NCBI GenBank assembly: GCA_963747005.1
Contig: CAVVDT010000003.1
Span: forward strand, 336,901-368,900
Direction of reading: 5' to 3'
From: an uncultured Alphaproteobacteria bacterium
GTDB taxonomy: Bacteria > Pseudomonadota > Alphaproteobacteria > Rhizobiales > Aestuariivirgaceae
DNA: 32,000 nucleotides
Position numbers and translations under genes: made by a program. Positions 11,297-26,663 of this stretch are shown one piece after another (position 1 is the stretch's first letter; each line of letters opens with the position of its first letter). The notes below the pieces were generated by a model. The model saw nothing but the letters and a program-made list of their open reading frames with translations, searched no databases and was not told where the DNA came from.

Positions 11297-11356
11297 ATCC
11301 TTGAAAGGATTAAAACGCGCAAAGTTTATTTTTTTTCACAGAAATGCAATTTTTTC

Positions 11357-11552: not shown

Positions 11553-12086
11553 ATGGACGACGACCGCGGCGCCGGGAGCGGAGTTGCTTGCACGCCGCCG
11601 GCAGTTGACGACGACAGGACGTCGGCGATTGCCTGCGACTACCTCGAAAGGCGACTGCCGATCGACGAGATCCTGAAGCGCCATCACATCTCTTACCGCT
11701 GCTTTTATCGCCTGATCGACAATGAGGGTTGGGCAAGACGGAGACCGCAGCGATCAAAGAAGGCGGAAGTGAGGATGCACAGCCCCGCTGCGCTGCTTGC
11801 CCGCTTGCGCAAACTGGCGCGGCGGCGCATCGCCGCGCTGGAAAAGGCGGCGAACACCGATGCAACAGACTTTGCCGGCCATGAGCGCCAGGTCAGGACG
11901 CTCACTGCCCTTGTCTCGCTGGTCAGGCACATCGAAGAACTCGAAGCCGCGAGCAGGTCGGACAGCGCGGCCGCACCTCGGGTCATGACGCCGGAAGAGG
12001 CCGATGAGCGACGCCAGAAGCTTGCGCAAATGCTTGTTGCAATGCTCGAGCAGGCAGGCGGTCGACGACTTCCTGACAGCGGTTGA
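11553..12086 (+). CDS. g1-position protein: putative HTH / small-terminase-like protein
   Basis: The ATG at 11553 lies within track ORF 11022..12086, whose upstream part overlaps ycgN and the promoter region. There is a possible HTH (LPIDEILKRHHISYRCFYRLI) followed by a predicted coiled coil (LARLRKLARRRIAALEKAA...IEELEAA). It sits immediately upstream of TerL and overlaps it. The function is inferred from position only. Confidence 0.5.
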   Translation: MDDDRGAGSGVACTPPAVDDDRTSAIACDYLERRLPIDEILKRHHISYRCFYRLIDNEGWARRRPQRSKKAEVRMHSPAALLARLRKLARRRIAALEKAANTDATDFAGHERQVRTLTALVSLVRHIEELEAASRSDSAAAPRVMTPEEADERRQKLAQMLVAMLEQAGGRRLPDSG

Positions 12087-13359
12087 CGGCGAGGATCTGG
12101 GCTTTCTGCAAGCTGACTGGGCAACGCTTGCCCGTGACGATCAATGGCCGGCGCTGGCGCCTGCAGGCGAAAGCGGACCGGCCACGTGGCTGTTCATCGG
12201 CGGGCGCGGTGCCGGCAAGACTCGCGCGGGTGCTGAGTGGGTGCGCCGCATGGCCATCGACCGCCGGCTGCGACCGCCGGGCGAGGACCTGGTGCGCATC
12301 GCCCTGGTGGGCCCCACCCTGAGCGAGGTACGCCAGGTGATGGTGGAGGGGCAATCGGGGTTGTTGGCCGTTCATGGGGATCGTGACGTCCGCCCGCTGT
12401 TTGAACCCTCGCGCCGGCAACTGACCTGGCCCGATCTGGCCATCGCCCAGATGTTTTCCGCCGAGGAGCCGGACAGCCTGCGCGGCTTCCAGTTCCACGC
12501 CGCCTGGTGCGACGAACTGGCCAAATGGCGCCAGTCCCGCGCCACCTGGGACATGCTCGAATTCGGCATGCGCCTGGGCGACAATCCGCAGCGCGTAGTG
12601 ACCACGACGCCGCGGCCGATACCGCTTCTGAAGGCGCTGATGGCCGATCCGGCGACCCTCGTTACGCGGGCAAGGACGGCTGACAACGCCGGCTTTCTGG
12701 CCCGCACCTTTCTCGATCACGTGACGGCGCGCTATGGCGGTACCGTCCTCGGCCGCCAGGAACTGGATGCCGAGATCATCGAGGAAGTTCAGGGCGCGCT
12801 GTTCTCGCGCCGCCTGATCGAGGCGGGACGTATCACTGCTGCGCCGGACCTTGTGCGCATCGTCGTTGCCGTCGATCCACCGGTGAGCCGCGGCCCCAAG
12901 GCGGCGGCCTGCGGCATCGTCTGCGCCGGGCGCGGGGCCGACGGGCGCGGCTATGTGCTCGACGACATGACCATCGAGGGCGCAAGCCCCATGGGCTGGG
13001 TGGCGCGTGCCGCTGGCCTCTATCACGCCCGCACCGCCGACCGGCTGGTGGCCGAGGTCAACCAGGGGGGCGATCTCGTAGCCAGCCTCTTGCGCGAAGT
13101 CGATCCGACGGTCGCCTATCGCGCCGTCCATGCCCGCCAGGGCAAGCGCTTGCGGGCCGAACCGGTCGCCGCGCTCTACGAACAGGGCCGGGTCTCCCAC
13201 GTCGGGGCATTTCCCGAACTCGAAGACGAAATGTGCAGTTTCATCGGGGCGGGCGACAGACCTGAGCGCAGTCCCGACCGCCTCGATGCCCTGGTGTGGG
13301 CCTTGAGCGACCTCTTGCTCGCCCGGCCGCGCACCGTGCCGCGCATCCGCCAACTGTAG
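12004..13359 (+). CDS. GTA/phage terminase large subunit (g2, TerL)
   Basis: The N-terminus is LGFLQADWATLARDDQWP followed by the Walker A segment WLFIGGRGAGKTRAGAEWVR, typical of RcGTA g2-type DNA-packaging proteins. The start is uncertain: ATG at 12004 gives an 83-nt overlap with the g1-like ORF, and in-frame TTG codons at 12034/12037 are alternatives. Confidence 0.9.
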   Translation: MSDARSLRKCLLQCSSRQAVDDFLTAVDGEDLGFLQADWATLARDDQWPALAPAGESGPATWLFIGGRGAGKTRAGAEWVRRMAIDRRLRPPGEDLVRIALVGPTLSEVRQVMVEGQSGLLAVHGDRDVRPLFEPSRRQLTWPDLAIAQMFSAEEPDSLRGFQFHAAWCDELAKWRQSRATWDMLEFGMRLGDNPQRVVTTTPRPIPLLKALMADPATLVTRARTADNAGFLARTFLDHVTARYGGTVLGRQELDAEIIEEVQGALFSRRLIEAGRITAAPDLVRIVVAVDPPVSRGPKAAACGIVCAGRGADGRGYVLDDMTIEGASPMGWVARAAGLYHARTADRLVAEVNQGGDLVASLLREVDPTVAYRAVHARQGKRLRAEPVAALYEQGRVSHVGAFPELEDEMCSFIGAGDRPERSPDRLDALVWALSDLLLARPRTVPRIRQL

Positions 13360-13377
13360 GAAAAGCCCGGAGGCTCA

Positions 13378-14601
13378 ATGCCAAACTGGTTCTCTTTGCT
13401 CGCCCGCCTCGTGGGCGCGGCACCCGCTTCGCCACCCGAGGCCAAGCGCAGCCGTACCGGTCCCCTGATTGCCCTGCAGACCGGCCACCAGCCGGTATGG
13501 ACGCCACGCAACTACCAGGCCCTGGCGAAGGAAGGCTTTGCCACCAATGCCGTGGGCTATCGCTGCGTGCGCATGATCTCCGAGGCCGCAGCGTCCGTCG
13601 AATGGCTGCTCTATGAGGACCAGCGCGAGCTTACCCGCCACCCTCTGCTCGACCTGCTGGCCCGGCCCAATCCGGTCGAGGACGGCCGTTCGCTGATGGA
13701 AGCTTTCTACGGCCACCTCTACATCGCCGGAAGCGCCTATCTGGAGGCTGCCAGCATCGATGGCGAGGTGCGCGAGTTGCATGCGCTGCGTCCCGACCGC
13801 ATGCGCGTGGTGGCCGGCGAGGACGGCTGGCCGGAAGCTTATGATTATACCATCGCCGGCCGCTCGGTGCGCTTTGCCCAGGACGGCAACGGCCCGGTAC
13901 CGCCGATCATGCACCTGCGCCTGTTCAATCCGACCGACGACCATTACGGCCTGTCGCCGCTGGAGGCCGCCGCCCGTGCCATCGACATCCACAACGCCGC
14001 CGGCGCCTGGAACAAGGCCCTGCTCGACAATTCCGCCCGGCCCTCGGGCGCTCTCATCTACAATGGCGGCGAAGCGGGCGGCCTCACCGAGGAACAGTTC
14101 GATCGCCTGAAGCAGGAGCTGGAGACCTCCTATCAGGGCGCCGTCAATGCCGGACGCCCGCTGGTGCTGGAAGGCGGCCTCGACTGGAAACCGCTGTCGC
14201 TCACCCCGCGCGACATGCAGCATATCGAGCTCCGATACGTGGCGGCGCGCGATATCGCACTGGCTTTCGGCGTGCCCCCCATGCTGCTCGGCATCCCCGG
14301 CGACAACACCTTTTCCAATTATGCCGAGGCCAACCGCACCTTTTGGCGCCAGACGGTGTTGCCGCTGGTCGCCCGCACCGCCGGTGCGCTCAGCCACTGG
14401 CTGAGACCGGTGTGGGGCGGCGGATTGAGCCTCGGCTACGACGCCGACAAGATCGAGGCCCTGGCGGGCGATCGCCAGGCCCTGTGGTCGAGCCTTGAGC
14501 AGGCCAGGTTCCTGACCGTCAACGAAAAGCGCATGGCCGTGGGTTACGGCGCGTTGGCAGACGGTGATCGCCTCCCGAGTAGTGCGACGGGGGCGGCCTG
14601 A
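13378..14601 (+). CDS. Phage portal protein, HK97 family (g3)
   Basis: The size (407 aa), the position between TerL and the protease, and motifs such as NAVGYRCVRMISEAAASV, PLLDLLARPNP and MLLGIPGDNTFSNYAEANRTFWRQTV fit HK97-type portals. Confidence 0.9.
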   Translation: MPNWFSLLARLVGAAPASPPEAKRSRTGPLIALQTGHQPVWTPRNYQALAKEGFATNAVGYRCVRMISEAAASVEWLLYEDQRELTRHPLLDLLARPNPVEDGRSLMEAFYGHLYIAGSAYLEAASIDGEVRELHALRPDRMRVVAGEDGWPEAYDYTIAGRSVRFAQDGNGPVPPIMHLRLFNPTDDHYGLSPLEAAARAIDIHNAAGAWNKALLDNSARPSGALIYNGGEAGGLTEEQFDRLKQELETSYQGAVNAGRPLVLEGGLDWKPLSLTPRDMQHIELRYVAARDIALAFGVPPMLLGIPGDNTFSNYAEANRTFWRQTVLPLVARTAGALSHWLRPVWGGGLSLGYDADKIEALAGDRQALWSSLEQARFLTVNEKRMAVGYGALADGDRLPSSATGAA

Positions 14602-14603
14602 TC

Positions 14604-15146
14604 ATGGCGACCGCAGCGCATTCCTTCAATACTTCTGGTCCAGTCGATGCAGGCGCGGTCGTCTCCGGCTATGCCAGCCTGTTCAACCTGCCCGACTCAA
14701 GCGGCGATGTGGTCCTGCCGGGCGCCTTTGCCAGGACCCTGGCGCGGCGCGGGCCAGACGGTGTCCGCATGCTCTGGCAGCACGATCCGGCTCAGCCTAT
14801 CGGGCGCTGGACCAGCCTCGTGGAGGACCGCCTGGGCCTCAAGGTCACGGGCCGGCTGACGGCAGGTGTCGCGACTGCCGACGACCTCGCCCGGCTGGTT
14901 GCCGATGCGGCCGTCGATGGCCTGTCCATAGGGTTCCGCACCGTGCGTGCCACATCGGACCCCAAGCGCGGCATCCGCCTGATCCGCGAGATCGATCTGT
15001 GGGAGGTGTCGCTTGTCACCTTCCCCATGCATCCCCGCGCCCGTCTCGTCCCGAGCGGTCCGCAAGGGATGAACGGCGGCGATCGCGCCGCCCTGGTCCG
15101 GCGTCTCGATGAGGCGAGGCGGACGATGCATTTGTCCATGTCATGA
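14604..15146 (+). CDS. HK97 family prohead protease (g4)
   Basis: VSGYASLFNLPDSSGDVVLPGAFARTL...MLWQHDPAQPIGRW...GLSIGF...EIDLWEVSLVTFPM is the HK97 prohead protease pattern. The gene starts 3 nt after the portal stop. Confidence 0.9.
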   Translation: MATAAHSFNTSGPVDAGAVVSGYASLFNLPDSSGDVVLPGAFARTLARRGPDGVRMLWQHDPAQPIGRWTSLVEDRLGLKVTGRLTAGVATADDLARLVADAAVDGLSIGFRTVRATSDPKRGIRLIREIDLWEVSLVTFPMHPRARLVPSGPQGMNGGDRAALVRRLDEARRTMHLSMS

Positions 15147-16420
15147 GGAGCATTGAAGAAGAGATGGATAGGGTTCCGCAGTATGAAACCAAGGTCGAGC
15201 CAGCCCCGCGCGACGTCAATGACGCCTTCGACGGCTTCATGACGACGTTCGAGGCTTTCCGCCAGGCCAACGATCGCCGGCTTGACGAGATCGAGCAGCG
15301 CATGAGCGCCGATGTCGTAACCCGCGACAAGGTCGAGCGCCTCAACAGCGCCCTCGACGAACACAAGGCCAAGCTCGACACCCTGACCCTGAAGGGCGCC
15401 CGTCCGCGCCTCGGCCGCGATGGCGACGAAGGGCGCGTCAGCCGGCCGAGCGAGCACAAGGCCGCCTTCGAGCGCTATGTGCGTCGCGGCGAAACCTCCG
15501 CGCTGGCCAATCTGGAAGCCAAGAGCCTGTCGGTGGGCAGCGACCCCGACGGCGGCTATCTGGTGCCGGACGAGACCGAAACGGAAATCGGCCGCCTGCT
15601 TGCCGCTGCCTCGCCGATCCGCGCCATCGCTGGCGTCCGGCAGGTTTCGGCCTCGGTCTACAAGAAGCCCTTTGCCATCACGGGTGCGGCGACCGGCTGG
15701 GTGGGCGAGACGGCGGCGCGGACCGAGACCGCCTCGCCGACGCTGGCCGAACTGCAGTTCCCGACCATGGAACTCTATGCCATGCCGGCCGCCACCCAGA
15801 GCCTGCTGGATGATGCCGCGGTCAATGTCGACCAGTGGATCGCCGAGGAGGTGCAGACGGTATTCGCCGAACAGGAAGGCGCTGCCTTCGTCACCGGCGA
15901 TGGCACCAACAAGCCGCGCGGCTTCCTCGACTACACCAGCGTCGATGATGCTTCGTGGAGCTGGGGCAACATCGGCTATGTGCCGACCGGCGTCGCTGGC
16001 GATTTTCCCGCAAGCGATGCCTCCGATGTGCTGGTCGATCTGGTCTACAGCCTGAAGAGCGGCTACCGCCAGGGTGCCTACTGGGTGATGAACCGCAAGA
16101 CCCAGGCCGAAATCAGGAAGCTCAAGGATGCCAACGGCCACTACCTCTGGCAGCCGGCGGCCACCGCCGACGGGCGCGCCAGCCTGATGAGCTTTCCCAT
16201 CGCCGAGGCCGAGGACATGCCCGACATCGCCGCCGATTCCACCGCGATCGCCTTCGGCGATTTCCGCCGCGGTTATCTGATCGTCGACCGGCTGGGGGTC
16301 AGGGTGCTGCGCGATCCCTATTCCTCCAAGCCCTACGTGCTGTTCTACACCACCAAGCGTGTTGGCGGCGGCGTGCAGAATTTCGAAGCGATCAAGCTGT
16401 TGAAGTTTGCTGTGTCGTAG
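15143..16420 (+). CDS. HK97 family major capsid protein (g5)
   Basis: The ATG overlaps the protease stop (ATGA at 15143-15146). An N-terminal coiled-coil delta-like region is followed by an HK97-fold core (LQFPTMELYAMPAATQSLLDDAAVNVDQWIAEEV...GDGTNKPRGFL). Confidence 0.92.
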   Translation: MRSIEEEMDRVPQYETKVEPAPRDVNDAFDGFMTTFEAFRQANDRRLDEIEQRMSADVVTRDKVERLNSALDEHKAKLDTLTLKGARPRLGRDGDEGRVSRPSEHKAAFERYVRRGETSALANLEAKSLSVGSDPDGGYLVPDETETEIGRLLAAASPIRAIAGVRQVSASVYKKPFAITGAATGWVGETAARTETASPTLAELQFPTMELYAMPAATQSLLDDAAVNVDQWIAEEVQTVFAEQEGAAFVTGDGTNKPRGFLDYTSVDDASWSWGNIGYVPTGVAGDFPASDASDVLVDLVYSLKSGYRQGAYWVMNRKTQAEIRKLKDANGHYLWQPAATADGRASLMSFPIAEAEDMPDIAADSTAIAFGDFRRGYLIVDRLGVRVLRDPYSSKPYVLFYTTKRVGGGVQNFEAIKLLKFAVS

Positions 16421-16435
16421 TCTGCCTTCCGCCCG

Positions 16436-16471
16436 CTCCGCCGCTTCCTGAGACAGGGGGGGGCGGCGGAG
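16436..16471 (+). promoter_or_regulatory. GC-rich stem-loop in the capsid/g6 intergenic gap
   Basis: CTCCGCCGC (16436-16444) is the exact reverse complement of GCGGCGGAG (16463-16471), with an 18-nt G-rich loop and no following T-run. It lies in the only sizeable gap (91 nt) of the head module. Confidence 0.45.
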
Positions 16472-16511
16472 ACCGCCTGCCCCGACCCAATCCAAAGAGA
16501 TCGGCATTTCC

Positions 16512-17090
16512 ATGCCCTTGATGCTCGTGACGCCCCCTCAGGGCGAACCCTTGAGCCTTGCCGAGGCCAAGACGTTTCTGCGGCTCGACACAACCGACGA
16601 CGACGTGGTGGTGAGCGATCTGATTGCCGCTGCCCGCCAGCGCATCGAGACCGGTGCCGGCCTGGCGCTGCTCACCCAGAACTGGCGCCTGGTGCTCGAC
16701 GATTGGCCCTCAAGTCGCGAAGTGGGGCTGATACCCGTGCCTGTCGCCAATGTCGATGCGGTACGGGTCCTCGATGCCGACGGCGTCGCCGAGGTCATCG
16801 ATCCGGTCGATTACCTGGCCGAGACGACGTCGCGCCCGGCCCGCCTGGTCCTGCTTTCATCGCGCCAATGGGGGAAGCCCGGACGCGCGGCCGGTGGTAT
16901 CGAGATCGATTTCACCGCCGGCTACGGCAGCGATGCCTCGAGCGTCCCGCTCCCCCTGCGCCAGGCCGTCATGCATCTGGTGACCGAGGCCTACGAGAAC
17001 CGCGAAGGCGGCAGGCCGCAATCACAGCCCGGACGCCTTTCCCCCATCGTGGCGCAACTCATCGGACCCTACCGGAGGGCGCGCCTGTGA
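16512..17090 (+). CDS. Head-tail connector protein, gp6-like (g6)
   Basis: PLSLAEAKTFLRLDTTDDDVVVSDLIAAARQRIETGAGLALLTQNWRLVLDDWP is the phage gp6-like connector motif. Confidence 0.85.
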   Translation: MPLMLVTPPQGEPLSLAEAKTFLRLDTTDDDVVVSDLIAAARQRIETGAGLALLTQNWRLVLDDWPSSREVGLIPVPVANVDAVRVLDADGVAEVIDPVDYLAETTSRPARLVLLSSRQWGKPGRAAGGIEIDFTAGYGSDASSVPLPLRQAVMHLVTEAYENREGGRPQSQPGRLSPIVAQLIGPYRRARL

Positions 17091-17410
17091 AGCTGGTTGC
17101 CGAACTGCGCCACCGGGTGAGCCTGCTCGAACCGGTGGAGACCGACGATGGGGCCGGCGGGCGGACCGTCACCTGGTCGGAACGCGATACCGTGTGGGCC
17201 CAGGTCGTTTCGCTGCGCGGCAAGGAGCGGCAATGGGCCGAGGCCCTCACTGCCGAGAGCCCCTACAGCGTCACTTTGCGCTACAGCCCCGACGTCACCG
17301 TCGAAATGCGCATCGGGTTCGATAACCGTTTGCTCGACATCAAGTCCGTCGCCGATCCGGACGGGCGCCGCCGCTGGCTCGTCTGCTACTGCGTCGAAAG
17401 GCCGGTGTGA
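17087..17410 (+). CDS. Phage head closure / head-tail adaptor protein (g7)
   Basis: The GTG at 17087 overlaps the g6 stop (GTGA). LRHRVSLLEPVETDDGAGGRTVTWSERDTVWAQVVSLRGKERQWAEA...YSVTLRY is the SPP1 gp16 / Phage_H_T_join pattern. The track ORF extension to 16703 lies inside g6 in another frame. Confidence 0.85.
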   Translation: MKLVAELRHRVSLLEPVETDDGAGGRTVTWSERDTVWAQVVSLRGKERQWAEALTAESPYSVTLRYSPDVTVEMRIGFDNRLLDIKSVADPDGRRRWLVCYCVERPV

Positions 17411-17715
17411 TGGCGGTCACGTTCAGACTGAGGCGCCGGCAGGGCGGCGGCGATCCCTCCTTGCAGGCCGCCGCCGCCCTCGATCTTGCCGCCCCCCACA
17501 TTGCGCGCCTGGTGGAAGACGGCCTCATGCGCTCGAGCATGGGGCGCTCCGCCGTCAGGGCCGAGGTGGTGGGCGCCAGCCTGGTGCTGACCGCCCGCCA
17601 CAGCGAACTCGCCAGTGCCGTCCAGCAGGCAAAGGGACCGATCGCTGGCGTCCTGCGCGCTGCCTGGCAGGCAGCGGGCAGCGGCCGGCACTTCAGCGGA
17701 AGGACTGACCCGTGA
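17410..17715 (+). CDS. Hypothetical protein between g7 and g8 (not part of the canonical RcGTA gene list)
   Basis: The ATG at 17410 (or GTG at 17407) overlaps the g7 stop, and its own stop overlaps the g8 GTG (GTGA at 17712-17715). Third-codon positions are overwhelmingly G/C in this frame. No family was recognised. Its position matches HK97 gp10-type tail-completion genes in siphophages. Confidence 0.55.
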   Translation: MAVTFRLRRRQGGGDPSLQAAAALDLAAPHIARLVEDGLMRSSMGRSAVRAEVVGASLVLTARHSELASAVQQAKGPIAGVLRAAWQAAGSGRHFSGRTDP

Positions 17716-18119
17716 CCACCAATTCCTCCCTCGCCCTGCAAAAGGCGATCCATGCCGCGCTTGCCGCCGATGCCGGCCTTGCCGCGATCCTCGGACCCCG
17801 CGTCTACGACGACGTGCCGCAGGGCACCAGCTTTCCCTATGTGGTCATCGGCGACGTCACGACGCGCGACTGGAGCACCCAGACGCAGCAAGGCCACGAG
17901 CATATCGTGGTCATCCACGCCTGGTCGAACCAGCGCGGTCGGCGCGAGGTGCAGATGATCATCGAGCGCCTCGACGCCGTCCTCGATGGCGCGGCACTGA
18001 CCCTCGACGACCACCAGCTCATCAACCTGCGCGTCGTCTTCTGGACGGCGCTGCGCGATCTCGACGGCGCCACCTATCACGGCGTGGTGCGCCTGCGCGC
18101 CGTCACCGAACCGCTTTAG
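17712..18119 (+). CDS. DUF3168 domain protein, tail terminator-like (g8)
   Basis: LQKAIHAALAADAGLAAILGPRVYDDVPQGTSFPYVVIGDVTTRDWSTQ...HIVVIHAWS is the DUF3168 pattern. Confidence 0.85.
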   Translation: MTTNSSLALQKAIHAALAADAGLAAILGPRVYDDVPQGTSFPYVVIGDVTTRDWSTQTQQGHEHIVVIHAWSNQRGRREVQMIIERLDAVLDGAALTLDDHQLINLRVVFWTALRDLDGATYHGVVRLRAVTEPL

Positions 18120-18146
18120 CCCAACCAACAGCAGGGAAGAGAACCC

Positions 18147-18560
18147 ATGGCCGCCCAGAAGGGACGCGACTTGCTTCTGAAACTCGACAGCGACGGGGTC
18201 GGCAGCTTCGTCACCGTCGCCGGCTTGCGCACCCACAATCTGACCTTCAATGCCCAGACCGTGGATGCAACCGACCAGGAATCGGCCGGGGCGTGGCGCG
18301 AACTCCTGGCCGATGCCGGCATCAAGTCGGCGGGCATCCGCGGCAGTGGCATCTTCAAGGACGCCGCCTCCGATGCCACCATCCGCACCCTGTTCTTCGA
18401 CGGGACGATCCGCGCCTGGCAGGTGGCCATTCCCGATTTCGGCGTTGTGGAAGGTCCGTTCCAGATCTCGACCCTGGAATTCGCCGGACAGCACGACGGT
18501 GAGATGACGTTCGACCTGTCGCTGGAATCGGCCGGCGAACTGACCTTCACGGCGGTTTGA
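18147..18560 (+). CDS. Phage major tail protein, TP901-1 family (g9)
   Basis: KGRDLLLKLDSDGVGSFVTVAGLRTHNLTFNAQTVDATDQES..WRELL...SGIFKD...GPFQISTLEFAGQHDGEMTFDLSLESAGELTF is typical of GTA g9 / TP901-1 major tail proteins. Confidence 0.88.
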   Translation: MAAQKGRDLLLKLDSDGVGSFVTVAGLRTHNLTFNAQTVDATDQESAGAWRELLADAGIKSAGIRGSGIFKDAASDATIRTLFFDGTIRAWQVAIPDFGVVEGPFQISTLEFAGQHDGEMTFDLSLESAGELTFTAV

Positions 18561-18567
18561 GGCGGCG

Positions 18568-18906
18568 ATGGCGAACCTGCATCGCGGCGATATCGAGGCA
18601 ACCCTCGACGGCCGCAAATACCGCCTGCGCCTGACGCTCGGCGCGCTCGCCGAACTGGAACAGGCCTACGGCGACACGGATCTCCTGGCGCTGGCCGAGC
18701 GCTTCGAGACCGGCCGCATCGGGGCGATCGACGCCATCCGGCTGATCGGCGCCGGATTGCGCGGGGCGGGCAGCGACATTGCCGACGACGATGTCGCGCG
18801 CATGGCATCCACCTCAGGCGCCGCCGGCTATGTGGCGATCGTCGCCGAATTGCTCAGGGCGACGTTTTCGCCGCCTGAAGGGAGCAGCGAAACCCAGGGA
18901 AACTGA
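18568..18906 (+). CDS. Gene transfer agent family protein, tail assembly chaperone (g10)
   Basis: GDIEATLDGRKYRLRLTLGALAELEQAYGDTDLLALAERFETGRIGAIDAIRLIGAGLRGAG matches the GTA g10 family. Confidence 0.85.
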   Translation: MANLHRGDIEATLDGRKYRLRLTLGALAELEQAYGDTDLLALAERFETGRIGAIDAIRLIGAGLRGAGSDIADDDVARMASTSGAAGYVAIVAELLRATFSPPEGSSETQGN

Positions 18907-18938
18907 GGGGCGCCGGGGAGGGGGGCTTTCCCTGGCGC
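18897..18938 (+). promoter_or_regulatory. Candidate programmed -1 ribosomal frameshift signal (slippery heptamer plus hairpin) at the g10/g10.1 junction
   Basis: G GGA AAC (18897-18903) is in the correct phase with g10, just before its TGA. After a 6-nt spacer there is a 10-bp stem: GCGCCGGGGA (18910-18919) pairs with TCCCTGGCGC (18929-18938), with one G-U pair and a 9-nt loop. Confidence 0.6.
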
Positions 18939-18944
18939 GACATC

Positions 18945-19115
18945 ATGGCGGTCGGCCTCGGCCGGTTGTGCCTGGCCCCCGACGTCTTCTGGGCGATGAC
19001 GCCCAAGGAATATGGCGCCGCCGTCGACGCGCTCAATCGCCGCCGTGGCGGGCCGGCACCGAGCCGGGCAGCCTTCGAGGCGCTCATGGATGCGTTTCCC
19101 GACCGAAAGGAATGA
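18945..19115 (+). CDS. rcc01693 / g10.1 family tail assembly protein (below the ORF-track size cut-off); likely expressed as a -1 frameshift extension of g10
   Basis: The -1 frame relative to g10 is open from 18879 to the TGA at 19113-19115. It encodes ...GGFPWRDIMAVGLGRLCLAPDVFWAMTPKEYGAAVDALNRRRGGPAPSRAAFEALMDAFPDRKE, which matches my memory of g10.1 proteins (W..LMRAGL..LGL.P..FW.LTP.E). The only canonical start is the ATG at 18945, downstream of the FPW segment. Confidence 0.7.
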   Translation: MAVGLGRLCLAPDVFWAMTPKEYGAAVDALNRRRGGPAPSRAAFEALMDAFPDRKE

Positions 19116-19118
19116 ACA

Positions 19119-19685
19119 ATGGCCACCACAGGCGACGGCCTCTCCTTCAGCATCGATCTCGATACATCCGCCCTGCGCACCGGTCTCACCGACCTGGAAA
19201 GGCTGAGCCGCTCCTTCGGCAACACCCTGGTACGGTCCTTCGCCAGCGCTATAACCGGCGGGCGCAAGCTGTCGGACGTGTTGCGCTCGCTCGCCTTGTC
19301 GCTCTCCAATACGGTATTGCGGTCGGCGTTGAGCCCGCTGGGCAATCTGGTCGGTAGCGGCCTGGCCTCGATCCTCGGCAATGCCAGGGGCAATGCCTTT
19401 TCCGGCGGCCGCATCACGCCGTTCGCGCAGGGCGGCATCGTCAACAGCCCGACGCTGTTCGCCATGCGCGGCGGCGCCGGACTGATGGGCGAGGCGGGCC
19501 CGGAAGCCGTCCTGCCGCTGGCGCGCGGTCCCGACGGTCGCCTTGGCGTCAAGGCGCAAGGCGGTCGCGTGGTGACCGTCAACATGAACATATCGACACC
19601 GGATGTTGCCGGTTTCCAGCGCTCACAGACCCAGGTCGCGGCGATGATGGTGCGCGCCCTCGAACGCGGCCAGCGCAACCTTTAG
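19119..19685 (+). CDS. Phage tail tape measure protein, short GTA type (g11)
   Basis: The C-terminal motif is ITPFAQGGIVNSPTLFAMRGGAGLMGEAGPEAVLPLARGPDGRLGV. At 188 aa it is GTA-like short. Confidence 0.85.
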   Translation: MATTGDGLSFSIDLDTSALRTGLTDLERLSRSFGNTLVRSFASAITGGRKLSDVLRSLALSLSNTVLRSALSPLGNLVGSGLASILGNARGNAFSGGRITPFAQGGIVNSPTLFAMRGGAGLMGEAGPEAVLPLARGPDGRLGVKAQGGRVVTVNMNISTPDVAGFQRSQTQVAAMMVRALERGQRNL

Positions 19686-19700
19686 AAAAGGGCAACGGGC

Positions 19701-20339
19701 ATGAGCTTTCACGATGTGCGCTTTCCCGTCGCCATCGCGCGCGGCGCTTCCGGCGGACCCGAGCGGCGCACCGAAATCGTCGTCACCGGATCGGGTGCCG
19801 AACAGCGCAACACCCGCTGGTACGCCTCGAGGCGGCGCTACAATGCCGGCTACGGCGTGAAAAGCCTCGCCGACATCCATGACGTGATTGCTTTCTTCGA
19901 GGCACGGCGCGGCCGCCTTCACGCTTTTCGCTGGAAGGACCATGCCGACTGGAAGTCCTGCGCCCCCGACCAGACGCCCGATCCGGGCGATCAGGCGATT
20001 GGTTCAGGCGATGGAACGACGGCGGCCATCCAACTCGTCAAGTCATATGGCACCGGGGCCGAAGCCTATCTGCGCGCCATCACCAAGCCGGTCGATGCCA
20101 GCGTGCGCATCGCCGTCGACGGCACCGAACTTGCCTCGCCCGCCGACTTCACCGTCGATACCCTGACCGGCATCGTCACGTTCGATGCAAGTGCCATTCC
20201 AGCGCCCGGCACGGCGATCACCGCCGGCTACGCGTTCGACGTGCCGGTGCGCTTCGATGCCGATCTTCTGGAAGTCAACCTGGCGGCCTTCGGGGCCGGC
20301 CAGATTCCCGACATCAGGCTCGTCGAGGTGATCGAATGA
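19701..20339 (+). CDS. DUF2460 / TIGR02217 family distal tail protein (g12)
   Basis: MSFHDVRFPVAIARGASGGPERRTEIVVTGSGAEQRNTRWYASRRRYNAGYG...FFEARRGRLHAFRWKDHADW is the DUF2460 signature. Confidence 0.88.
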   Translation: MSFHDVRFPVAIARGASGGPERRTEIVVTGSGAEQRNTRWYASRRRYNAGYGVKSLADIHDVIAFFEARRGRLHAFRWKDHADWKSCAPDQTPDPGDQAIGSGDGTTAAIQLVKSYGTGAEAYLRAITKPVDASVRIAVDGTELASPADFTVDTLTGIVTFDASAIPAPGTAITAGYAFDVPVRFDADLLEVNLAAFGAGQIPDIRLVEVIE

Positions 20340-21235
20340 GACAGCTTCCCGCCGCGCTGCAGAGCACCCTCGACAGCGGCACCACCAGCTTGTGCTGGTG
20401 CTGGAAGCTGACGACCCGCGATGGCACAGCGCTCGGTTTTACCGATCACGATCGCGACCTCGACTTCGATGGGGTCACCTATCGCGCCACCACCGGCTTC
20501 ACGGCGAGCGACATGCAGTCGAGCCTCGGGCTCAGCGTCGACAACCTCGAGGTGGCCGGCGCCTTGTCGTCGCTGGCCCTGACCGAAGCCGACCTGCTGG
20601 CCGGCCGCTATGACGATGCCGCCATGCAGGTGTGGGTCGTCGACTGGTCCGACCCCGCCCAGCGGGCCCTGCTGCGCAGCGGCAATCTGGGCGAGGTGAG
20701 GCGCGGCGATGTCGGCTTCACCGCCGAGATCCGGGGACTGGCCAACCGGCTGAATGTGACCAGGGGTCGCAATTTCCAGTACGGCTGCGACGCCATCCTT
20801 GGCGATGCCCGTTGCGGTGTTGACCTGGCCGACCCGGCCTATGCCGGGACCGGGGCGGTGGTTGCCGCTGACGATGCCTGGCGGCTGCGTGTCAGCGGGC
20901 TGGACGCATTTCAGGCCGGCTGGTTCCGCGGCGGGCTCATCACCTGGTCGAGCGGCGCCAATGCCGGGCGCCTGAGCGAGGTGAAGTCGCATCGCATCGA
21001 TGCAGCCGGCGTGGTGATCGAACTGACAGCGCTGCTCCCGGCAGATGTGGCCGTCGGCGACGGGTTCGACATCGCCGCCGGCTGCGACAAGCAGTTTTCC
21101 ACCTGCCGCGCCAAGTTCGCCAACAACGTCAACTTCCGCGGCTTTCCCCACATGCCCGGCAACGATTTCGTGGTGCGCTATCCCAACACCAGCGACGCCA
21201 GCAATAGCGGCGGCAGCCTGAACGGTGCGGGATGA
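20336..21235 (+). CDS. DUF2163 / phage BR0599 family hub protein (g13)
   Basis: The start overlaps the g12 stop (ATGA). The N-terminus is TTSLCWCWKLTTRDGTALGFTDHDRDLDFDGVTYRA and the C-terminus is FSTCRAKFANNVNFRGFPHMPGNDF. Confidence 0.88.
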   Translation: MRQLPAALQSTLDSGTTSLCWCWKLTTRDGTALGFTDHDRDLDFDGVTYRATTGFTASDMQSSLGLSVDNLEVAGALSSLALTEADLLAGRYDDAAMQVWVVDWSDPAQRALLRSGNLGEVRRGDVGFTAEIRGLANRLNVTRGRNFQYGCDAILGDARCGVDLADPAYAGTGAVVAADDAWRLRVSGLDAFQAGWFRGGLITWSSGANAGRLSEVKSHRIDAAGVVIELTALLPADVAVGDGFDIAAGCDKQFSTCRAKFANNVNFRGFPHMPGNDFVVRYPNTSDASNSGGSLNGAG

Positions 21236-21681
21236 GTGGGACCGACGAGTTTGCGCCCCGTGTCGTTGCCCTGGCGCGCGGCTGGATCGGCACACCTTAC
21301 CGGCACCAGGCGAGCCGGCGGGGTATCGGCTGCGACTGCCTCGGGTTGGTGCGCGGGGTGTGGCGCGATCTCTATGGTAACGAACCGGAGGCGGTTCCCG
21401 CCTATTCGGGCGGCTGGGCCGAAACGCCGGCCGCATCGAATGAGCCGCTGGCCTCGGCCGCCCGCCGCCACATGAGCGAGGTCGAGCCATCAGCCTTTGC
21501 CGGCGGCGATCTTCTGGTGTTCCGCTGGCGCCGGCACCTGCCGGCCAAGCATCTGGGCATCGCGGTCAGTCCCACCCGCATGATCCATGCCCAGGAGGGT
21601 GCGGCGGTGTGCGAGGTGACCCTCAATTCCTGGTGGCGGCGGCATCTCGCCTTCGCCTTCTGTTTTCCCCGCAATCGATAG
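21232..21681 (+). CDS. NlpC/P60 family cell-wall peptidase (g14)
   Basis: The start overlaps the g13 stop (ATGA). WIGTPYRHQASRRGIGCDCLGLVRGVWRDLYG (catalytic Cys) and AKHLGI...IHA fit the phage NlpC/P60 peptidase family. Confidence 0.88.
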   Translation: MSGTDEFAPRVVALARGWIGTPYRHQASRRGIGCDCLGLVRGVWRDLYGNEPEAVPAYSGGWAETPAASNEPLASAARRHMSEVEPSAFAGGDLLVFRWRRHLPAKHLGIAVSPTRMIHAQEGAAVCEVTLNSWWRRHLAFAFCFPRNR

Positions 21682-21690
21682 CGAGCAACG

Positions 21691-24600
21691 ATGGCAACTC
21701 TGGTCCTGCAGACGGCCGGTCAGGCGCTCGGCGGCCTGTTCGGCCCGTTGGGCGGCATCATCGGCCGCGCCGCCGGCGCAATCGCCGGCAATGTCATCGA
21801 CCAGGCCCTCTTCGGCCCACCCACCAGCCACCGCGATGGCCCGCGCCTCAGCGATCTCTACGTGCTGTCGTCGAGCGAGGGCGCTCCGGTGCCGCGCGTG
21901 TGGGGACGCATGCGGGTCTCGGGTCAGATCATCTGGGCGACCCGGCTGGAAGAAGTGGTGACCACCAGCAAGCAGGGATCAGGCGGCAAGGGCGGCTTGT
22001 TGCGGCCCTCCTCGACCCTCACCGAATACGAATATTTCGCCAATCTCGCCATCGGCCTCGCCGAAGGTCCGATTGCCCGCATCGGCCGTGTCTGGGCCGA
22101 CGGCAAGGAGATCGAACTGGACGCCTTTGCCTGGCGCTTTTATCCAGGCGACGAGACCCAGGAGCCCGACAGCCTCATCCTCGCCAAGGAAGGCGCCGAT
22201 GCAGCACCTGCCTATCGCGGTCTTGCCTATGTGGTGCTGGAGCGCTTGCCGCTCGCCCAGTTCGGCAACCGGGTGCCGCAGTTCTCCTTCGAGATATTCC
22301 ACCCGCTGGAATCGATGGAAGACGCTTTGCGCGCCGTGTGCATCATTCCCGGCTCGACCGAATTCGGCTATGAGCCGGCGATCGTTACACGCCAGATCGG
22401 ATGGGGCGAGACCGAGAGCGAGAACGCCCATGCCTCGGCGCTCAAGTCCGACTGGACCGTCTCGCTCGACCAGCTCGCCGGCACCTGTCCGAACGTGGCC
22501 GCCGCATCGCTGGTGGTCGCCTGGTTCGGCGACGACCTGCGCTGCGGTTCGACCACTCTGAAACCCGGCGTCGAGAACACCAACAAGCAAACGTCACCGA
22601 TGAGCTGGGGCGTGGCCGGCCTCGGGCGTGGCGATGCCCATGTCGTATCCGAGATCGACGGTGGTCCGGCCTTCGGCGGCACACCGAGCGACAATTCCGT
22701 TCTCGACGCCATCGCCGATCTCAAGGTGCGCGGGCTCGATGTGGTGTTCTACCCCTTCATCCTGATGGACATTCCCACCGGCAAAGGCCTTGCCGATCCG
22801 TACGGCGTCGGTGCCGAACAGGCGGTTTATCCCTGGCGCGGGCGCATCACCTGCGACCCGGCGCCGGGCGTTGCCGGATCGCCCGACAAGACCGCCGCGC
22901 TGACGGCCGATGTGGATCATTTCTTCGGTGTGGCGCAGGTTTCCGATTTCTCCATCGCCAGCGGCGAGCTGGTCTATTCCGGACCGGACGATTGGGGCCT
23001 CAGGCGCATGGTGTTGCACTATGCCCATCTGTGTTCGCTGGCTGGCGGCGTCGATGCCTTCATTATCGCCAGTGAACTGCGCGGACTGACGACATTGCGC
23101 GATGGCGCGGCGAGCTTTCCCGCCGTCGAGCGGCTGAAGACGCTGGCCGCGGACGTGGCGGGTGTGTTGCCGGGCGCCAAGGTCTCCTATGCCGCGGACT
23201 GGTCGGAATATTTCGGCTATCAGCCGAACGATGCCTCGGGCGATGTGTTCTTTCACCTTGACCCCTTGTGGGCCGCGCCCGCCGTCGCCTTCATCGGCAT
23301 CGACAACTACCTGCCCTTGAGCGACTGGCGCCCCGGCATCGCCCACGCCGATGCCGCGGTCGGTTGGTCCGCGGTCTACGATGCGGACTATCTAAAGTCC
23401 AACATCGCCGGCGGTGAATATTTCGACTGGTATTATGCCAACGATGCCGACCGCGCACTGCAGCAGCGCACCGCTATCAGCGACGGTGCCTATGGCAAGC
23501 CCTGGGTGTTCCGACCCAAGGATCTGGTGAACTGGTGGTCCAACCAGCATTTCAATCGCCCCGACGGCACCGAGGACACCACGCCGACCGGCTGGGTGCC
23601 ACAATCCAAGCCCATCTGGTTCACGGAATTGGGGGTCCCGGCGGTCGATCTCGGCACCAACCAGCCCAACGTCTTCTACGACCCGAAATCTTCCGAAAGC
23701 GCGTTGCCGTATTTCTCCAGCGGGGTGCGCGACGACCTGATCCAGCGGCGGGCGCTGCTGGCTGTCAGCGACTACTGGCGCGCAAGCTCCGGCAATCCGG
23801 TCTCGACGATCTATGGCGGCCCCATGATCGATGCCGACCGTCTTTTCGTGTGGTGCTGGGACGCGCGGCCGTTTCCCGCCTTCCCGGGGCGCAGCGATGT
23901 GTGGGCCGACGCCCCCAACCACCAGCGCGGACATTGGCTCAACGGCCGCCTGGGCGCGGTCGCGCTCGACGATCTCGTTGCCGACATTTGCCACGTCTAC
24001 GGCTTCGACGGTGCGCAAAGTGGTGAGCTGAACGCCGTCATCGACGGTTTTCTCATCGACCGGCCCATGTCGGCGCGAGATGCCATCGAGCCGCTGGCGC
24101 GTCTCTATGCCTTCGACGGCATCGAAACCGGCGGCAACATCATCTTCCGTTCAAGGCTGCAACGTGACGCCGTGGCCATGGCCCATGACGACCTTGTCGA
24201 AACCGATGCCGCAAAGCCGTTGATTGATCTGACGCGCGCCCAGGAAAGCGAACTGCCGACGTCGATCAGGATCGCCTATACCGAAAGCTCGGGCGATTAC
24301 CTTCGCGCCATGGTGGAGGCCCGGCGCTCATCGGCCTCCACCATCCAGGACGTCGCCCTCGATGCCCCTTGCGTACTGCCCCAGTCGAATGCGGCATCGC
24401 GCGCCGCGGTGCTGCTGGCCGAAGCCTGGGTGGGGCGCGAGACGGCCCGCTTCGTGTTGCCACCCGACCGGCTGGCGATCGAGCCGGGCGATTCCATCCT
24501 GCTGGCGGAATCGGGCGTCACCCGGCGCTACCGCATAGAGGAAGTCTCGGATGGCACGGCCCGCGAGGTGCTGGCCAGAAGCCTCGATCCGCATGTCTAC

Positions 24601-25590: not shown

Positions 25591-26663
25591 AACGACCCCG
25601 CTTCTGAACCTGCCCTTCATCATGGCGGCGCAGGCGCAAAAGCACGTCACGCCACAACGACGCCCTGCTCGGGCTCGATGCGCTGGTGCAGCTTTCGGTG
25701 CTGAGCCGCACCGTGGCCGATCCGCCCGGCTCCCCGCAGGAAGGCGACCGCTATATCGTCGCCGCACCGGCTACGGGCGACTGGACCGGGATGGAAGCTG
25801 CCGTCGCGGCCTTTCAGGATGGCATCTGGCGCTTTTATTCGCCGATGCCGGGCTGGCGTGTGTGGATCAGCGATGAGGCACGCTTTCTCGTGCATGATGC
25901 CACGCAATGGCGCGGGGTTATCGCCGATGCCGATCTGCAGGACGTCGCCGAACTGGGGATCAACGCCACGGCGGACGCCACCAACAAGCTGGCGGTGAAG
26001 TCGCCCGGCGTGCTGTTCGACAACATCGGCAACGACAGCCAGGTCAAGGTCAACAAGGCGGCCGCCGGCGACACCGCTTCGCATCTCTTTCAGACCGGCT
26101 ATTCCGGCCGCGCCGAGTTCGGCCTGACCGGCGACGACGATTTCCACGCCAAGGTCTCGCCCGACGGCGCCGCCTGGAACGATGGCTTGCTCATCGACAA
26201 GTCCAGTGGCCGCGTCACCTTCCCCAGCGGGATCGGTGAACAGGGCACGTGGACCCCGACCGTCACGTTCTCGACACCTGGGGATTTCTCGCCGACCTAT
26301 AGCGCTCAGCAGGCCGATTACATCGGGCTCGGGGATTGGGCTTATGTGAGCTTCTATGTCAAATTCGACACCAACGCCTACACGACCGCGGGCGGCTACC
26401 TTCGTCTCGACGGCCTGCCCTTCGCGAGCCGCGTCGAAGGCACCTTACAGTTCTTCCCTTGCGGCAACGCGATTACCACAAAGGTGGTCTTTCTGACCGC
26501 CTACAAGCAGGTCATGTGGGTGACCCGCACCGGCTTTACCTGGTTGACCTTGATGTCTGTGAACAGTGGCGGCGGCACGTCGTCTCTGGGCGTCCCGACC
26601 CAGTTCCCGGCCTCGACCGCAGGCTTCGAGCTGTGGGGATCATTCTGGTACCGGAGGTCTTAG
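25583..26663 (+). pseudogene. DUF2793 domain tail-fibre-like protein interrupted by a 1-nt frameshift near codon 23
   Basis: The ATG at 25583 overlaps the g15 stop by 8 nt (ATGTCTGA). Frame 2 reads MSETTPLLNLPFIMAAQAQKHVT and then turns into Arg/Pro-rich nonsense. Frame 0 continues from 25653 as HNDALLGLDALVQLSVLSRTVADPPGSPQEGDRYIV..., the expected DUF2793 continuation (QAQKHVTHNEAL.. motif). One extra base lies within ACGCCAC (25649-25655). Confidence 0.75.

What the first reader, a model, noticed from the sequence alone, without database searches (positions are those of the whole stretch)
18879..19115. Textbook -1 programmed frameshift cassette linking g10 to g10.1 (lambda G/GT analogue in a GTA)
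g10 ends ...CAG GGA AAC TGA.
- Slippery site: the heptamer G GGA AAC (18897-18903) obeys the X XXY YYZ rule in the correct phase and is one base different from the lambda G/GT site G GGA AAG.
- Stimulatory structure: exactly 6 nt downstream a 10-bp GC-rich hairpin begins (18910-18919 GCGCCGGGGA with 18929-18938 TCCCTGGCGC, one G-U pair, 9-nt loop). This is the classic spacing for a stimulatory structure.
- Open -1 frame: it runs from 18879 to 19115 and encodes a g10.1/rcc01693-like sequence. Its conserved-looking FPWRDIM segment lies upstream of the only canonical start codon (ATG 18945). That frame has no ATG, GTG or TTG between 18879 and 18944.
- Predicted product: slippage would give ...SSETQGN-LRGAGEGGFPWRDIMAVGL...
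Frameshifted tail assembly chaperones are established for dsDNA phages. In GTA clusters, however, g10.1 is usually treated as a separate small ORF.
Basis: partly seen in the sequence, partly recalled or inferred. Interest (0 to 1): 0.7.

Follow-up and report, generated by a model that had tools for sequence, protein, structure and literature searches.

The report
Frameshift signal joining GTA tail chaperones
In this gene-transfer-agent gene cluster, a conserved slippery sequence followed by an RNA hairpin almost certainly makes some ribosomes slip back one base and fuse two small tail-assembly proteins, as phage lambda does, although databases list them as two separate genes.

Summary

**In the window**
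- g10 (18568-18906, Pfam Phage_TAC_11) ends ...CAG GGA AAC TGA.
- G_GGA_AAC (18897-18903) is in phase and is the only such heptamer in the 9-codon overlap with the open -1 frame (18879-19115).
- Six nt downstream lies a 13-bp hairpin (18910-18938; z = -4.1).
- The -1 frame encodes the rcc01693/Phage_TAC_6 domain. This domain starts at FPW (18927), six codons before the only start codon (ATG 18945).

**In relatives**
- The heptamer, the spacer and the hairpin are conserved while flanking codons vary. The hairpin shows compensatory changes at five positions.
- An AGGGAG-like element lies about 12 nt upstream, giving a dnaX-like three-part signal.
- Across 221 unique RcGTA-like junctions, g10.1 lies in the -1 frame in 205.
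- Where g10.1 has no start codon of its own, 94 of 105 junctions carry an in-phase X_XXY_YYZ. Where it has its own ATG, 6 of 40 do.
- The hairpin is found only with the heptamers ending in AAC or AAT, which I take to be the weaker slip sites.

**Verdict**
This is a programmed -1 frameshift producing a 182-aa g10-g10.1 fusion: a new, unannotated member of the well-known phage tail-chaperone frameshift class. There is no experimental proof. Interest is moderate.

The parts
18147..18560 (+). g9, major tail (tube) protein gene. It gives the upstream context.
   Evidence: Pfam PF06199 Phage_tail_2, E 1.3e-43
18568..18906 (+). g10, the 0-frame tail assembly chaperone (112 aa), analogous to lambda gpG
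   Evidence: Pfam PF11836 Phage_TAC_11, E 7e-29. The AlphaFold model (pLDDT 77) matches predicted phage proteins named tail assembly chaperone, TM 0.58-0.73.
18879..18884 (+). AGGGAG, a Shine-Dalgarno-like element 12 nt upstream of the heptamer. It is a possible upstream stimulator, as in dnaX.
   Evidence: An SD-like 4-5-mer lies in the same position in 9 of 10 loci with an AAC/AAT heptamer, against 13% of background positions in g10. Its function is inferred.
18897..18903 (+). Slippery heptamer G_GGA_AAC, in phase with g10
   Evidence: It is invariant in the relatives. It uses GGA, which is only 7% of Gly codons in this cluster.
18904..18906 (+). g10 stop codon TGA, immediately 3' of the heptamer. 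It forms the first half of the 6-nt spacer (18904-18909).
   Evidence: The stop is lost in relatives L085, P0004 and P0006 without loss of the heptamer.
18910..18938 (+). Stimulatory hairpin: 13-bp stem (18910-18922 with 18926-18938) and loop 18923-18925. Its 3' arm is made of the F-P-W-R codons of g10.1.
   Evidence: dG -26 kcal/mol, z = -4.09. It is conserved with compensatory changes at five 3'-arm positions. It is specific to loci with AAC/AAT heptamers: 9 of 9 have z < -2, against 0 of 29 loci where g10.1 has its own ATG.
18903..19115 (+). The -1 frame read after the shift: linker LRGAGEGG, then the g10.1 domain (18927-19112, FPWRDIM...FPD), then stop TGA at 19113-19115. Analogous to the T part of lambda gpGT.
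   Evidence: Pfam PF09550 Phage_TAC_6 E 8.7e-17 and TIGR02216 rcc01693 family, both aligning from FPW. Translation.
18945..18947 (+). ATG used by gene callers as the g10.1 start (56-aa product). It is a conserved internal Met of the domain.
   Evidence: The 56-aa form is on record for this contig. The Met is conserved even where a start lies upstream of FPW. There is no SD-like motif 4-16 nt upstream.
19119..19685 (+). g11, tail tape measure protein gene. It gives the downstream context.
   Evidence: NCBIfam NF058675 RcGTA-type tape measure, 210.6 bits (cut-off 220). PHROGs tape-measure families also match.

Best explanation
This is a programmed -1 ribosomal frameshift site in the tail-assembly-chaperone gene pair of an RcGTA-like head-tail cluster.

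Most ribosomes translate g10 to its TGA and release a 112-aa chaperone. A minority behave differently:
- With GGA in the P site and AAC in the A site, they are held up by the 13-bp hairpin that begins 6 nt downstream. An AGGGAG element pairing with 16S rRNA 12 nt upstream may help.
- The two tRNAs re-pair on GGG AAA.
- Translation continues in the -1 frame through a short linker into the g10.1 domain.
- The result is a 182-aa g10-g10.1 fusion.

By analogy with lambda gpG/gpGT, the g10 part would coat the tape measure protein g11. The g10.1 part would recruit the tail tube protein g9. The frameshift efficiency would set the ratio of the two products.

Shown here: the sequence elements, their phase, their conservation and covariation, and the family-wide link between a heptamer and the lack of a start codon.
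Inferred: that slippage occurs, how efficient it is, and the roles of the two products.
For: **In the window**
- The heptamer is in phase and is the only one in the 9-codon overlap.
- The hairpin starts 6 nt downstream, z = -4.1.
- There is no start codon in the -1 frame before the conserved FPW segment. That segment is needed to reach the TIGR02216 cut-off: 57.1 against 47.0 bits.

**In close relatives**
- GGGAAAC is invariant in 7 distinct junctions while neighbouring codons vary.
- GN is kept in P0004-P0007, P0146 and P0147, with or without the following stop.
- In L085 the -1 frame opens exactly at the heptamer.
- Indels between the heptamer and FPW are multiples of 3.

**Hairpin**
- It is present 5-6 nt downstream in all 10 loci with an AAC/AAT heptamer.
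- There are compensatory double changes at 3'-arm positions -1, 2, 5, 10 and 11.
- Mean z is -3.9 in that group and about 0 in all other classes.

**Upstream element**
- An SD-like motif is present in 9 of 10 of these loci, against a 13% background.

**Across the family**
- There are 221 unique junctions from three scans, and g10.1 is in the -1 frame in 205.
- An in-phase heptamer is present in 94 of 105 junctions without a start codon, against 6 of 40 with an upstream ATG (Fisher p = 1e-17, not corrected for phylogeny).
- In the first set there are 89 in-phase heptamers in the overlap zone, 11 out-of-phase ones, and 3 in-phase ones in the rest of g10.
- Three loci have no start codon at or before the conserved Met (the next possible start is an internal GTG 12 codons into the domain), and all three carry a heptamer.

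**Context and precedent**
- The pair lies between the tail tube and tape measure genes, and both proteins fall in Pfam TAC families.
- G_GGA_AAC is reported as the g-t shift site of haloarchaeal virus HCTV-1, and G_GGA_AAG as highly shift-prone in E. coli (PMC5009743).
Against: - There is no protein, Ribo-seq or reporter evidence.
- From my own knowledge, A_AAC is a weaker A-site slip codon than A_AAG in E. coli, so efficiency could be very low.
- Many related clusters make g10.1 from its own ATG overlapping the g10 stop. The domain can therefore work untethered, and initiation at ATG 18945 in this window cannot be excluded.
- Apparent in-frame g10-g10.1 fusions in databases look like 1-nt indels and give no independent support.
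- The statistics treat related loci as independent.
- The SD-like element lies in a purine-rich, Glu/Gly-coding tail and could be incidental.
Confidence: 0.85

Rival explanations
1. g10.1 is a free-standing 56-aa protein initiated at ATG 18945, either de novo or by ribosomes re-initiating after terminating at the g10 TGA 41 nt upstream. On this view the heptamer and hairpin are incidental.
For: - The ATG is conserved in most loci.
- Gene callers annotate exactly this ORF.
- In many related clusters g10.1 is clearly made as a separate protein from its own start.
- SD-less and coupled initiation is common at those starts.
Against: - The product would lack FPWRDI, which is part of the Pfam and TIGR models and is worth 10 bits.
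- Where g10.1 has its own start, that start always lies upstream of FPW.
- The Met is replaced by I, T or L in some loci that have no upstream start but do have a heptamer.
- This view does not explain the invariance of GGGAAAC, which uses a rare GGA codon.
- It does not explain the covarying hairpin restricted to AAC/AAT-heptamer loci.
- It does not explain the 94/105 against 6/40 association.
- There is no SD-like motif before the ATG.
Confidence: 0.08
2. The hairpin has another role, such as mRNA stability, a processing site, or damping translation of g10.1 and g11. The GN end of g10 would then be conserved for protein reasons.
For: The hairpin is stable and lies between two ORFs. Its 3' arm ends 6 nt before ATG 18945, so it could modulate initiation there.
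Against: - No T-run follows the hairpin and no terminator-like site is found on the + strand.
- The hairpin is absent from loci where g10.1 has its own ATG start and from loci with other heptamers. It is present in 9 of 9 loci with AAC/AAT heptamers, always 5-6 nt after the heptamer.
- The C-terminal tail of g10 is otherwise unconserved.
Confidence: 0.04
3. This is a decaying cluster: g10.1 has lost its start codon and is no longer expressed.
For: There is no start codon upstream of FPW.
Against: - The same arrangement occurs in several distinct lineages with an intact g10.1 domain.
- All neighbouring GTA genes are intact with strong Pfam matches.
Confidence: 0.03

Closest known systems
Phage lambda gpG/gpGT tail assembly chaperone frameshift, and the conserved frameshift in dsDNA phage tail assembly genes (Levin et al. 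1993 and Xu, Hendrix and Duda 2004, as cited in PMC5009743)
   Same: - Two small ORFs lie between the major tail gene and the tape measure gene.
- The second ORF is in the -1 frame, overlaps the end of the first and has no start of its own.
- The heptamer G_GGA_AAC differs by one base from what I recall as lambda's site, G_GGA_AAG.
- The expected products are an abundant short protein and a rare fusion.
   Different: - No sequence similarity to gpG or gpT was shown. The families here are Phage_TAC_11 and Phage_TAC_6.
- A strong, covarying downstream hairpin and an upstream SD-like element are present. From my own knowledge, lambda relies mainly on the heptamer.
- The host element is a GTA-type cluster flanked by cellular genes, not a phage.
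E. coli dnaX -1 frameshift signal (my own knowledge: upstream AGGGAG, A_AAA_AAG, downstream hairpin)
   Same: It has the same three-part layout: an SD-like AGGGAG about 10-12 nt upstream, a heptamer, and a stable hairpin 5-6 nt downstream.
   Different: - The heptamer differs and is weaker.
- The outcome is a C-terminal extension, whereas in dnaX the shift leads to early termination.
- The role of the SD-like element is only inferred here.
g-t frameshift of haloarchaeal tailed virus HCTV-1 (PMC5009743)
   Same: The identical shift heptamer G_GGA_AAC is used in a tail chaperone gene pair.
   Different: The host is archaeal, the proteins are unrelated, and no hairpin comparison was made.
RcGTA g10 / g10.1 (rcc01692 / rcc01693)
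   Same: - The proteins are homologous (PF11836; TIGR02216 'rcc01693 family').
- The position in the head-tail cluster is the same.
- They are called tail chaperone 1 and 2 in PMC11409702.
   Different: - In the literature I could reach they are listed as separate genes, with no frameshift mentioned.
- I could not read the RcGTA junction itself.
- The TIGR02216 model starts at the FPW segment, so its seed proteins probably have their own start upstream of it.

Membership tests
Phage tail assembly chaperone pair expressed by -1 frameshift (lambda G/GT type) | The gene pair lies between the major tail protein gene and the tape measure gene | tested here: met
   g9 Phage_tail_2 at 18147-18560, g10 and g10.1 at 18568-19115, g11 RcGTA-type tape measure at 19119-19685
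Phage tail assembly chaperone pair expressed by -1 frameshift (lambda G/GT type) | The second ORF is in the -1 frame, overlaps the 3' end of the first, and has no start codon of its own covering the conserved domain | tested here: met
   The -1 frame is open from 18879. There is no ATG, GTG or TTG before 18945. The domain starts at 18927.
Phage tail assembly chaperone pair expressed by -1 frameshift (lambda G/GT type) | An in-phase slippery heptamer in the overlap, conserved in relatives | tested here: met
   G_GGA_AAC at 18897-18903 is invariant in 7 distinct junctions. Family-wide association with the lack of a start codon.
Phage tail assembly chaperone pair expressed by -1 frameshift (lambda G/GT type) | The proteins belong to tail assembly chaperone families or share their fold | tested here: met
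   PF11836 Phage_TAC_11 (E 7e-29) and PF09550 Phage_TAC_6 (E 9e-17). The g10 model matches BFVD proteins named tail assembly chaperone, with E 3e-4 to 1e-2 and TM up to 0.73. No solved structure matches by sequence or by fold.
Phage tail assembly chaperone pair expressed by -1 frameshift (lambda G/GT type) | Both the short protein and the frameshift fusion are made, and both are needed for tail assembly | not testable with these tools
   Needs mass spectrometry, reporter assays or genetics
dnaX-type three-part -1 frameshift signal | A stable downstream hairpin 5-9 nt after the heptamer | tested here: met
   13 bp, 6-nt spacer, z = -4.1. Covariation. Specific to loci with AAC/AAT-ending heptamers.
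dnaX-type three-part -1 frameshift signal | An upstream Shine-Dalgarno-like element about 10-14 nt 5' of the heptamer that stimulates the shift | tested here: inconclusive
   AGGGAG at 18879-18884. A similar motif occurs in 9 of 10 related loci against a 13% background. However, the region is purine-rich coding sequence and the function is untested.
RcGTA-like gene transfer agent head-tail cluster | RcGTA gene order, with homologues of terminase, portal, capsid, g8, g9, g10, g10.1, g11, g12 and g15 | tested here: met
   Pfam hits in order from 12004 to 25590, including DUF2460 (g12) and GTA_TIM plus Rcc01698_C (g15). g11 scores 210.6 bits on NF058675, just under its cut-off of 220.
RcGTA-like gene transfer agent head-tail cluster | A cluster of about 15 kb embedded among cellular genes, without integrase, replication or lysogeny genes | tested here: inconclusive
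   The flanks hold a class A penicillin-binding protein and DUF2336, DUF6456 and DUF2793 proteins, with no phage-type genes recognised. Several flanking ORFs have no Pfam match.
RcGTA-like gene transfer agent head-tail cluster | The particles package random host DNA rather than their own genes | not testable with these tools
   This is a functional property

The most novel reading that the evidence does not exclude
RcGTA-like clusters have switched repeatedly between two ways of making the g10.1 (T-like) domain. It is either a free protein started at an ATGA overlap with g10, or a g10 fusion made by -1 frameshifting.

The frameshift has at least four separate solutions:
- G_GGA_AAC/T with a dnaX-like SD-plus-hairpin signal built from the FPW codons.
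- G_GGA_AAG.
- A_AAC_CCT next to the stop codon.
- C_CCT_TTC lying on the PFPW codons themselves.

If so, tethering of the T-like domain to the chaperone is evolutionarily optional. More than half of the GTA clusters sampled here would then encode an unannotated fusion protein.
Probability: 0.55. Interest if true: 0.55.

Novelty: new member of a known kind. Interest (0 to 1): 0.45.

Why it matters
- GTA head-tail clusters are annotated and counted gene by gene. g10.1 is often dropped as too short (PMC9765227) or called from an internal Met.
- Recognising the frameshift corrects the gene model, giving a 182-aa fusion instead of a truncated 56-aa ORF.
- It predicts a new GTA protein that sets the g10 : g10-g10.1 ratio for tail assembly.
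- It provides a compact, naturally varied set of bacterial -1 frameshift signals: heptamers that I take to be weak, paired with an SD-like element and a hairpin, versus other heptamers without either. These could be tested in alphaproteobacteria.
- It also shows that this domesticated element has kept a typical phage recoding device.

Tried and rejected
- **In-frame fusions as independent support.** A search with the predicted fusion found about 10 single-ORF g10+g10.1 proteins. Several go out of frame elsewhere. In the three I read at DNA level, two still read ...PFPGT(T/S)* in the +1 frame and one sits on an error-rich contig, which points to 1-nt indels. I do not use them as evidence.
- **SD motif before ATG 18945 compared with the true starts of free-standing g10.1.** This was uninformative, because SD-like motifs are rare before both.
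- **Solved structures.** Sequence searches with g10 and g10.1 profiles gave only chance-level hits. Foldseek against the PDB found nothing.
- **Rfam.** No family matched; there were two chance hits on the other strand.
- **Terminator or promoter reading of the hairpin.** No + strand sites were found.
- **Phage records.** Only two uncultured-phage records carry a g10 homologue, with no useful annotation.
- **Literature.** Xu et al. 2004 is not held. Searches found no GTA paper describing a g10/g10.1 frameshift. Subscription-journal GTA reviews could not be checked.
- **RcGTA itself.** I could not fetch the Rhodobacter capsulatus junction.
- **Transcriptional slippage.** Rejected, because the A-run is only 3 nt long.
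- **CTG 18903 as a start codon.** Rejected as unsupported.

Full report
**What is in the window.** The + strand from about 12.0 to 25.6 kb carries an RcGTA-like head-tail cluster. In order it contains the large terminase, portal, HK97-type capsid, tail completion protein g8, tail tube g9 (18147-18560), g10 (18568-18906, PF11836 Phage_TAC_11), a -1 frame ORF matching PF09550 Phage_TAC_6, g11, g12 (DUF2460) and g15 (GTA_TIM, Rcc01698_C). g11 (19119-19685) matches the NCBIfam model for the RcGTA-type tape measure, at 210.6 bits against a cut-off of 220, and also matches PHROGs tape-measure families. The flanks encode cellular proteins such as a class A penicillin-binding protein. No integrase or replication genes were recognised.

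**Checking the observation.** g10 ends CAG GGA AAC TGA. GGGAAAC (18897-18903) is in X_XXY_YYZ phase. The -1 frame has a stop at 18876-18878 and then runs open to the TGA at 19113-19115. It has no ATG, GTG or TTG before ATG 18945. A shift must therefore happen within nine codons, and G_GGA_AAC is the only in-phase heptamer there. The hairpin is real and longer than described. The arms are 18910-18922 and 18926-18938, giving 13 pairs around a GGG loop, 6 nt after the heptamer. For 18904-18945, dG is -26 kcal/mol, z = -4.09, and 0 of 200 dinucleotide shuffles fold as well. The FPWRDI segment upstream of the ATG belongs to the family. Pfam aligns from the F at 18927. TIGR02216 ('rcc01693 family') passes its cut-off only when these six residues are included: 57.1 against 47.0 bits, cut-off 56.1. 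The predicted fusion is 182 aa...ETQGN|LRGAGEGGFPWRDIM.... Gene callers have recorded the 56-aa ATG form for this very contig.

**Close relatives.** I fetched DNA for four g10 homologues that are 66-82% identical. In the alignment, GGGAAAC is invariant while the codons before it differ (SSETQ, SSDPS, GAEPE, AEGHE, EEESS). The 6-nt spacer length is kept, and the 5' arm GCGCC is invariant even though it lies in an unconserved linker. Further homologues also end ...GN, or continue ...GNR...FPGAT*, so the heptamer persists where the stop codon after it is lost. In L085 a -1 frame TGA sits directly before GGG, so the -1 frame opens exactly at the heptamer. The two indels between the heptamer and FPW are both 6 nt. 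GGA makes up only 7% of Gly codons in this cluster.

**The hairpin is under selection.** Ten loci carry a heptamer ending in AAC or AAT: the window, L081, L083, L091, L085, L087, L110, L007, L013 and L016. I folded each on its own. In all of them a stem starts 5-6 nt after the heptamer, and its 3' arm is the F-P-W-(R/Q) codons. I mapped the pairs onto homologous 3'-arm positions. This shows compensatory double changes at five positions. Examples are G-C to C-G at the third base of the Pro codon in L013, C-G to U-A in L016, A-U to G-C in L110, and matching 3-nt insertions in both arms in L087, L110 and L016. For the same 45-nt region, mean z is -3.9 in this group, with 9 of 9 below -2. The other groups give about 0: 0 of 29 loci where g10.1 has its own ATG, 3 of 54 loci with C_CCT_TTC, and 0 of 14 loci in other frames fall below -2. 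So the hairpin accompanies exactly the heptamers with what I take to be the weaker A-site slip codons. This is what a stimulatory element would do. It also argues against a general role in mRNA stability or termination, and no + strand terminator-like site is present.

**A third element.** AGGGAG lies at 18879-18884, 12 nt upstream of the heptamer. An SD-like 4-5-mer is found at a similar distance in 9 of the 10 loci. The exception, L007, also has its own ATG. The background is 13% of positions within g10. From my own knowledge, this layout resembles the E. coli dnaX signal. Because the region encodes a Glu/Gly-rich tail, I rate this element as suggestive only.

**Family-wide pattern.** Three scans gave 221 unique g10/g10.1 junctions: 80 GTDB genomes, two sets of 80 IMG/VR contigs, and the close relatives. 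I anchored each on the FPW motif. g10.1 is in the -1 frame of g10 in 205 of them. Among those 205:
- Where no start codon lies upstream of FPW, 94 of 105 have an in-phase X_XXY_YYZ within 90 nt.
- Where an ATG lies upstream, only 6 of 40 do (Fisher p = 1e-17, not corrected for phylogeny).

In the first set, the zone where both frames are open holds 89 in-phase heptamers and 11 out-of-phase ones, while the rest of g10 holds 3 in-phase ones. The second set alone reproduces the association: 42 of 44 against 3 of 17. In the 16 junctions where g10.1 is in the +1 or 0 frame, 15 have their own start. Three loci have no start codon at or before the conserved Met position, the next possible start being an internal GTG 12 codons into the domain, and all three carry a heptamer.

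**Other solutions seen in relatives.** There are several:
- C_CCT_TTC lies on the P-F codons of PFPW itself. In those loci g10 runs on to ...PFPGTT* and its TGA overlaps the GTGATG of g10.1.
- Other heptamers are A_AAC_CCT (often directly before the stop), G_GGA_AAG and C_CCT_TTG.
- Where g10.1 has its own start, it is typically an ATGA overlap 2-11 codons upstream of FPW.
- The free-standing protein therefore always includes FPW, which is a further argument that the 56-aa ATG form in this window is truncated.

**Mechanism.** The best-supported reading is a programmed -1 ribosomal frameshift. It would give a minority g10-g10.1 fusion alongside the 112-aa g10, the GTA counterpart of lambda gpG and gpGT. 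The review PMC5009743 describes a 30:1 ratio of those products and their binding to the tape measure and tail tube proteins. It also records G_GGA_AAG as highly shift-prone in E. coli and G_GGA_AAC as the g-t shift site of haloarchaeal virus HCTV-1. The AlphaFold model of g10 (pLDDT 77) resembles predicted phage proteins named tail assembly chaperone, with TM up to 0.73. The sequence anatomy and its conservation are shown. The slippage itself, its efficiency and the division of labour between the two products are inferred.

**Rivals.**
- Initiation at ATG 18945 as the sole route is unlikely for the reasons above, but it cannot be excluded as an additional route.
- A different role for the hairpin is contradicted by its restriction to loci with AAC/AAT-ending heptamers.
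- Gene decay is contradicted by conservation in several lineages.
- Transcriptional slippage is implausible on a run of three A.

**What did not help.** Apparent in-frame fusions in the protein database look like 1-nt indels. PDB and Rfam gave nothing. SD motifs do not separate true starts from the internal Met.

**Novelty.** The conserved tail-chaperone frameshift of tailed phages is textbook knowledge. Pfam already files both GTA proteins as chaperones. A 2024 paper calls them tail chaperone 1 and 2 without mentioning a frameshift (PMC11409702). Six literature searches found no GTA paper that describes a g10/g10.1 frameshift. GTA studies list g10.1 as a separate short gene (PMC9765227; PMC5026251). 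Subscription-only GTA reviews and Xu et al. 2004 could not be read. I therefore file this as a new, unannotated member of a known kind. Moderately interesting extras are the dnaX-like signal, whose hairpin is built from conserved codons, and the alternation between fused and free g10.1 across GTA clusters.

Noticed in passing
L001, L003-L006, L090 and about 60 other unique junctions (FPW anchor -3 to +18): In many relatives g10 runs on to ...PFPGTT*. Its TGA overlaps the GTGATG of g10.1, and an in-phase C_CCT_TTC lies on the Pro-Phe codons of the PFPW motif itself. CCC-TTT is invariant there, although CCT is 3% of Pro codons and TTT 24% of Phe codons in the window's cluster. No conserved hairpin follows.
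   Followed up: partly
L014, L021, L066, L164 and about 40 other junctions: In these loci g10.1 has its own ATG overlapping the g10 stop (ATGA), 0-11 codons upstream of FPW, and there is no slippery heptamer. The domain is apparently made as a free protein there. All but one of the junctions with g10.1 in the +1 or 0 frame also have their own start.
   Followed up: partly
L215, L223, L236, L246, L250 and similar loci (last codons of g10): In this group g10 ends ...PPDP* (G GAC CCT TGA), with no canonical heptamer and no ATG for g10.1. The -1 frame just after the stop reads a conserved GPL(S/N)AAAGEA. A single-tRNA slip at C_CCU next to the stop codon is possible.
   Followed up: no
window 18927-18929 and the same codon in most loci: The Phe of FPW is TTT in most loci of every class, including those where g10.1 has its own start. 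Yet TTC is 76% of Phe codons in the window's cluster. Only in the hairpin and C_CCT_TTC classes is there an obvious reason.
   Followed up: no
P0121-P0135; L169-L171: The protein database holds about ten single-ORF g10+g10.1 'fusions'. Of the three read at DNA level, two still read ...PFPGT(T/S)* in the +1 frame and one sits on a contig with other broken genes. They are probably assembly indels or recent mutations rather than natural fusions.
   Followed up: yes
window 3623-4618 (+) and 25686-26663 (+): A DUF6456 protein lies about 7 kb upstream of the cluster, and a DUF2793 protein lies directly after g15. Neither function was examined.
   Followed up: no
window 11022-12086 (+): A 354-aa ORF without any Pfam or NCBIfam match precedes the terminase ORF (12004-13359) and overlaps it by 83 nt. 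The true g1-like gene and its start were not worked out.
   Followed up: no
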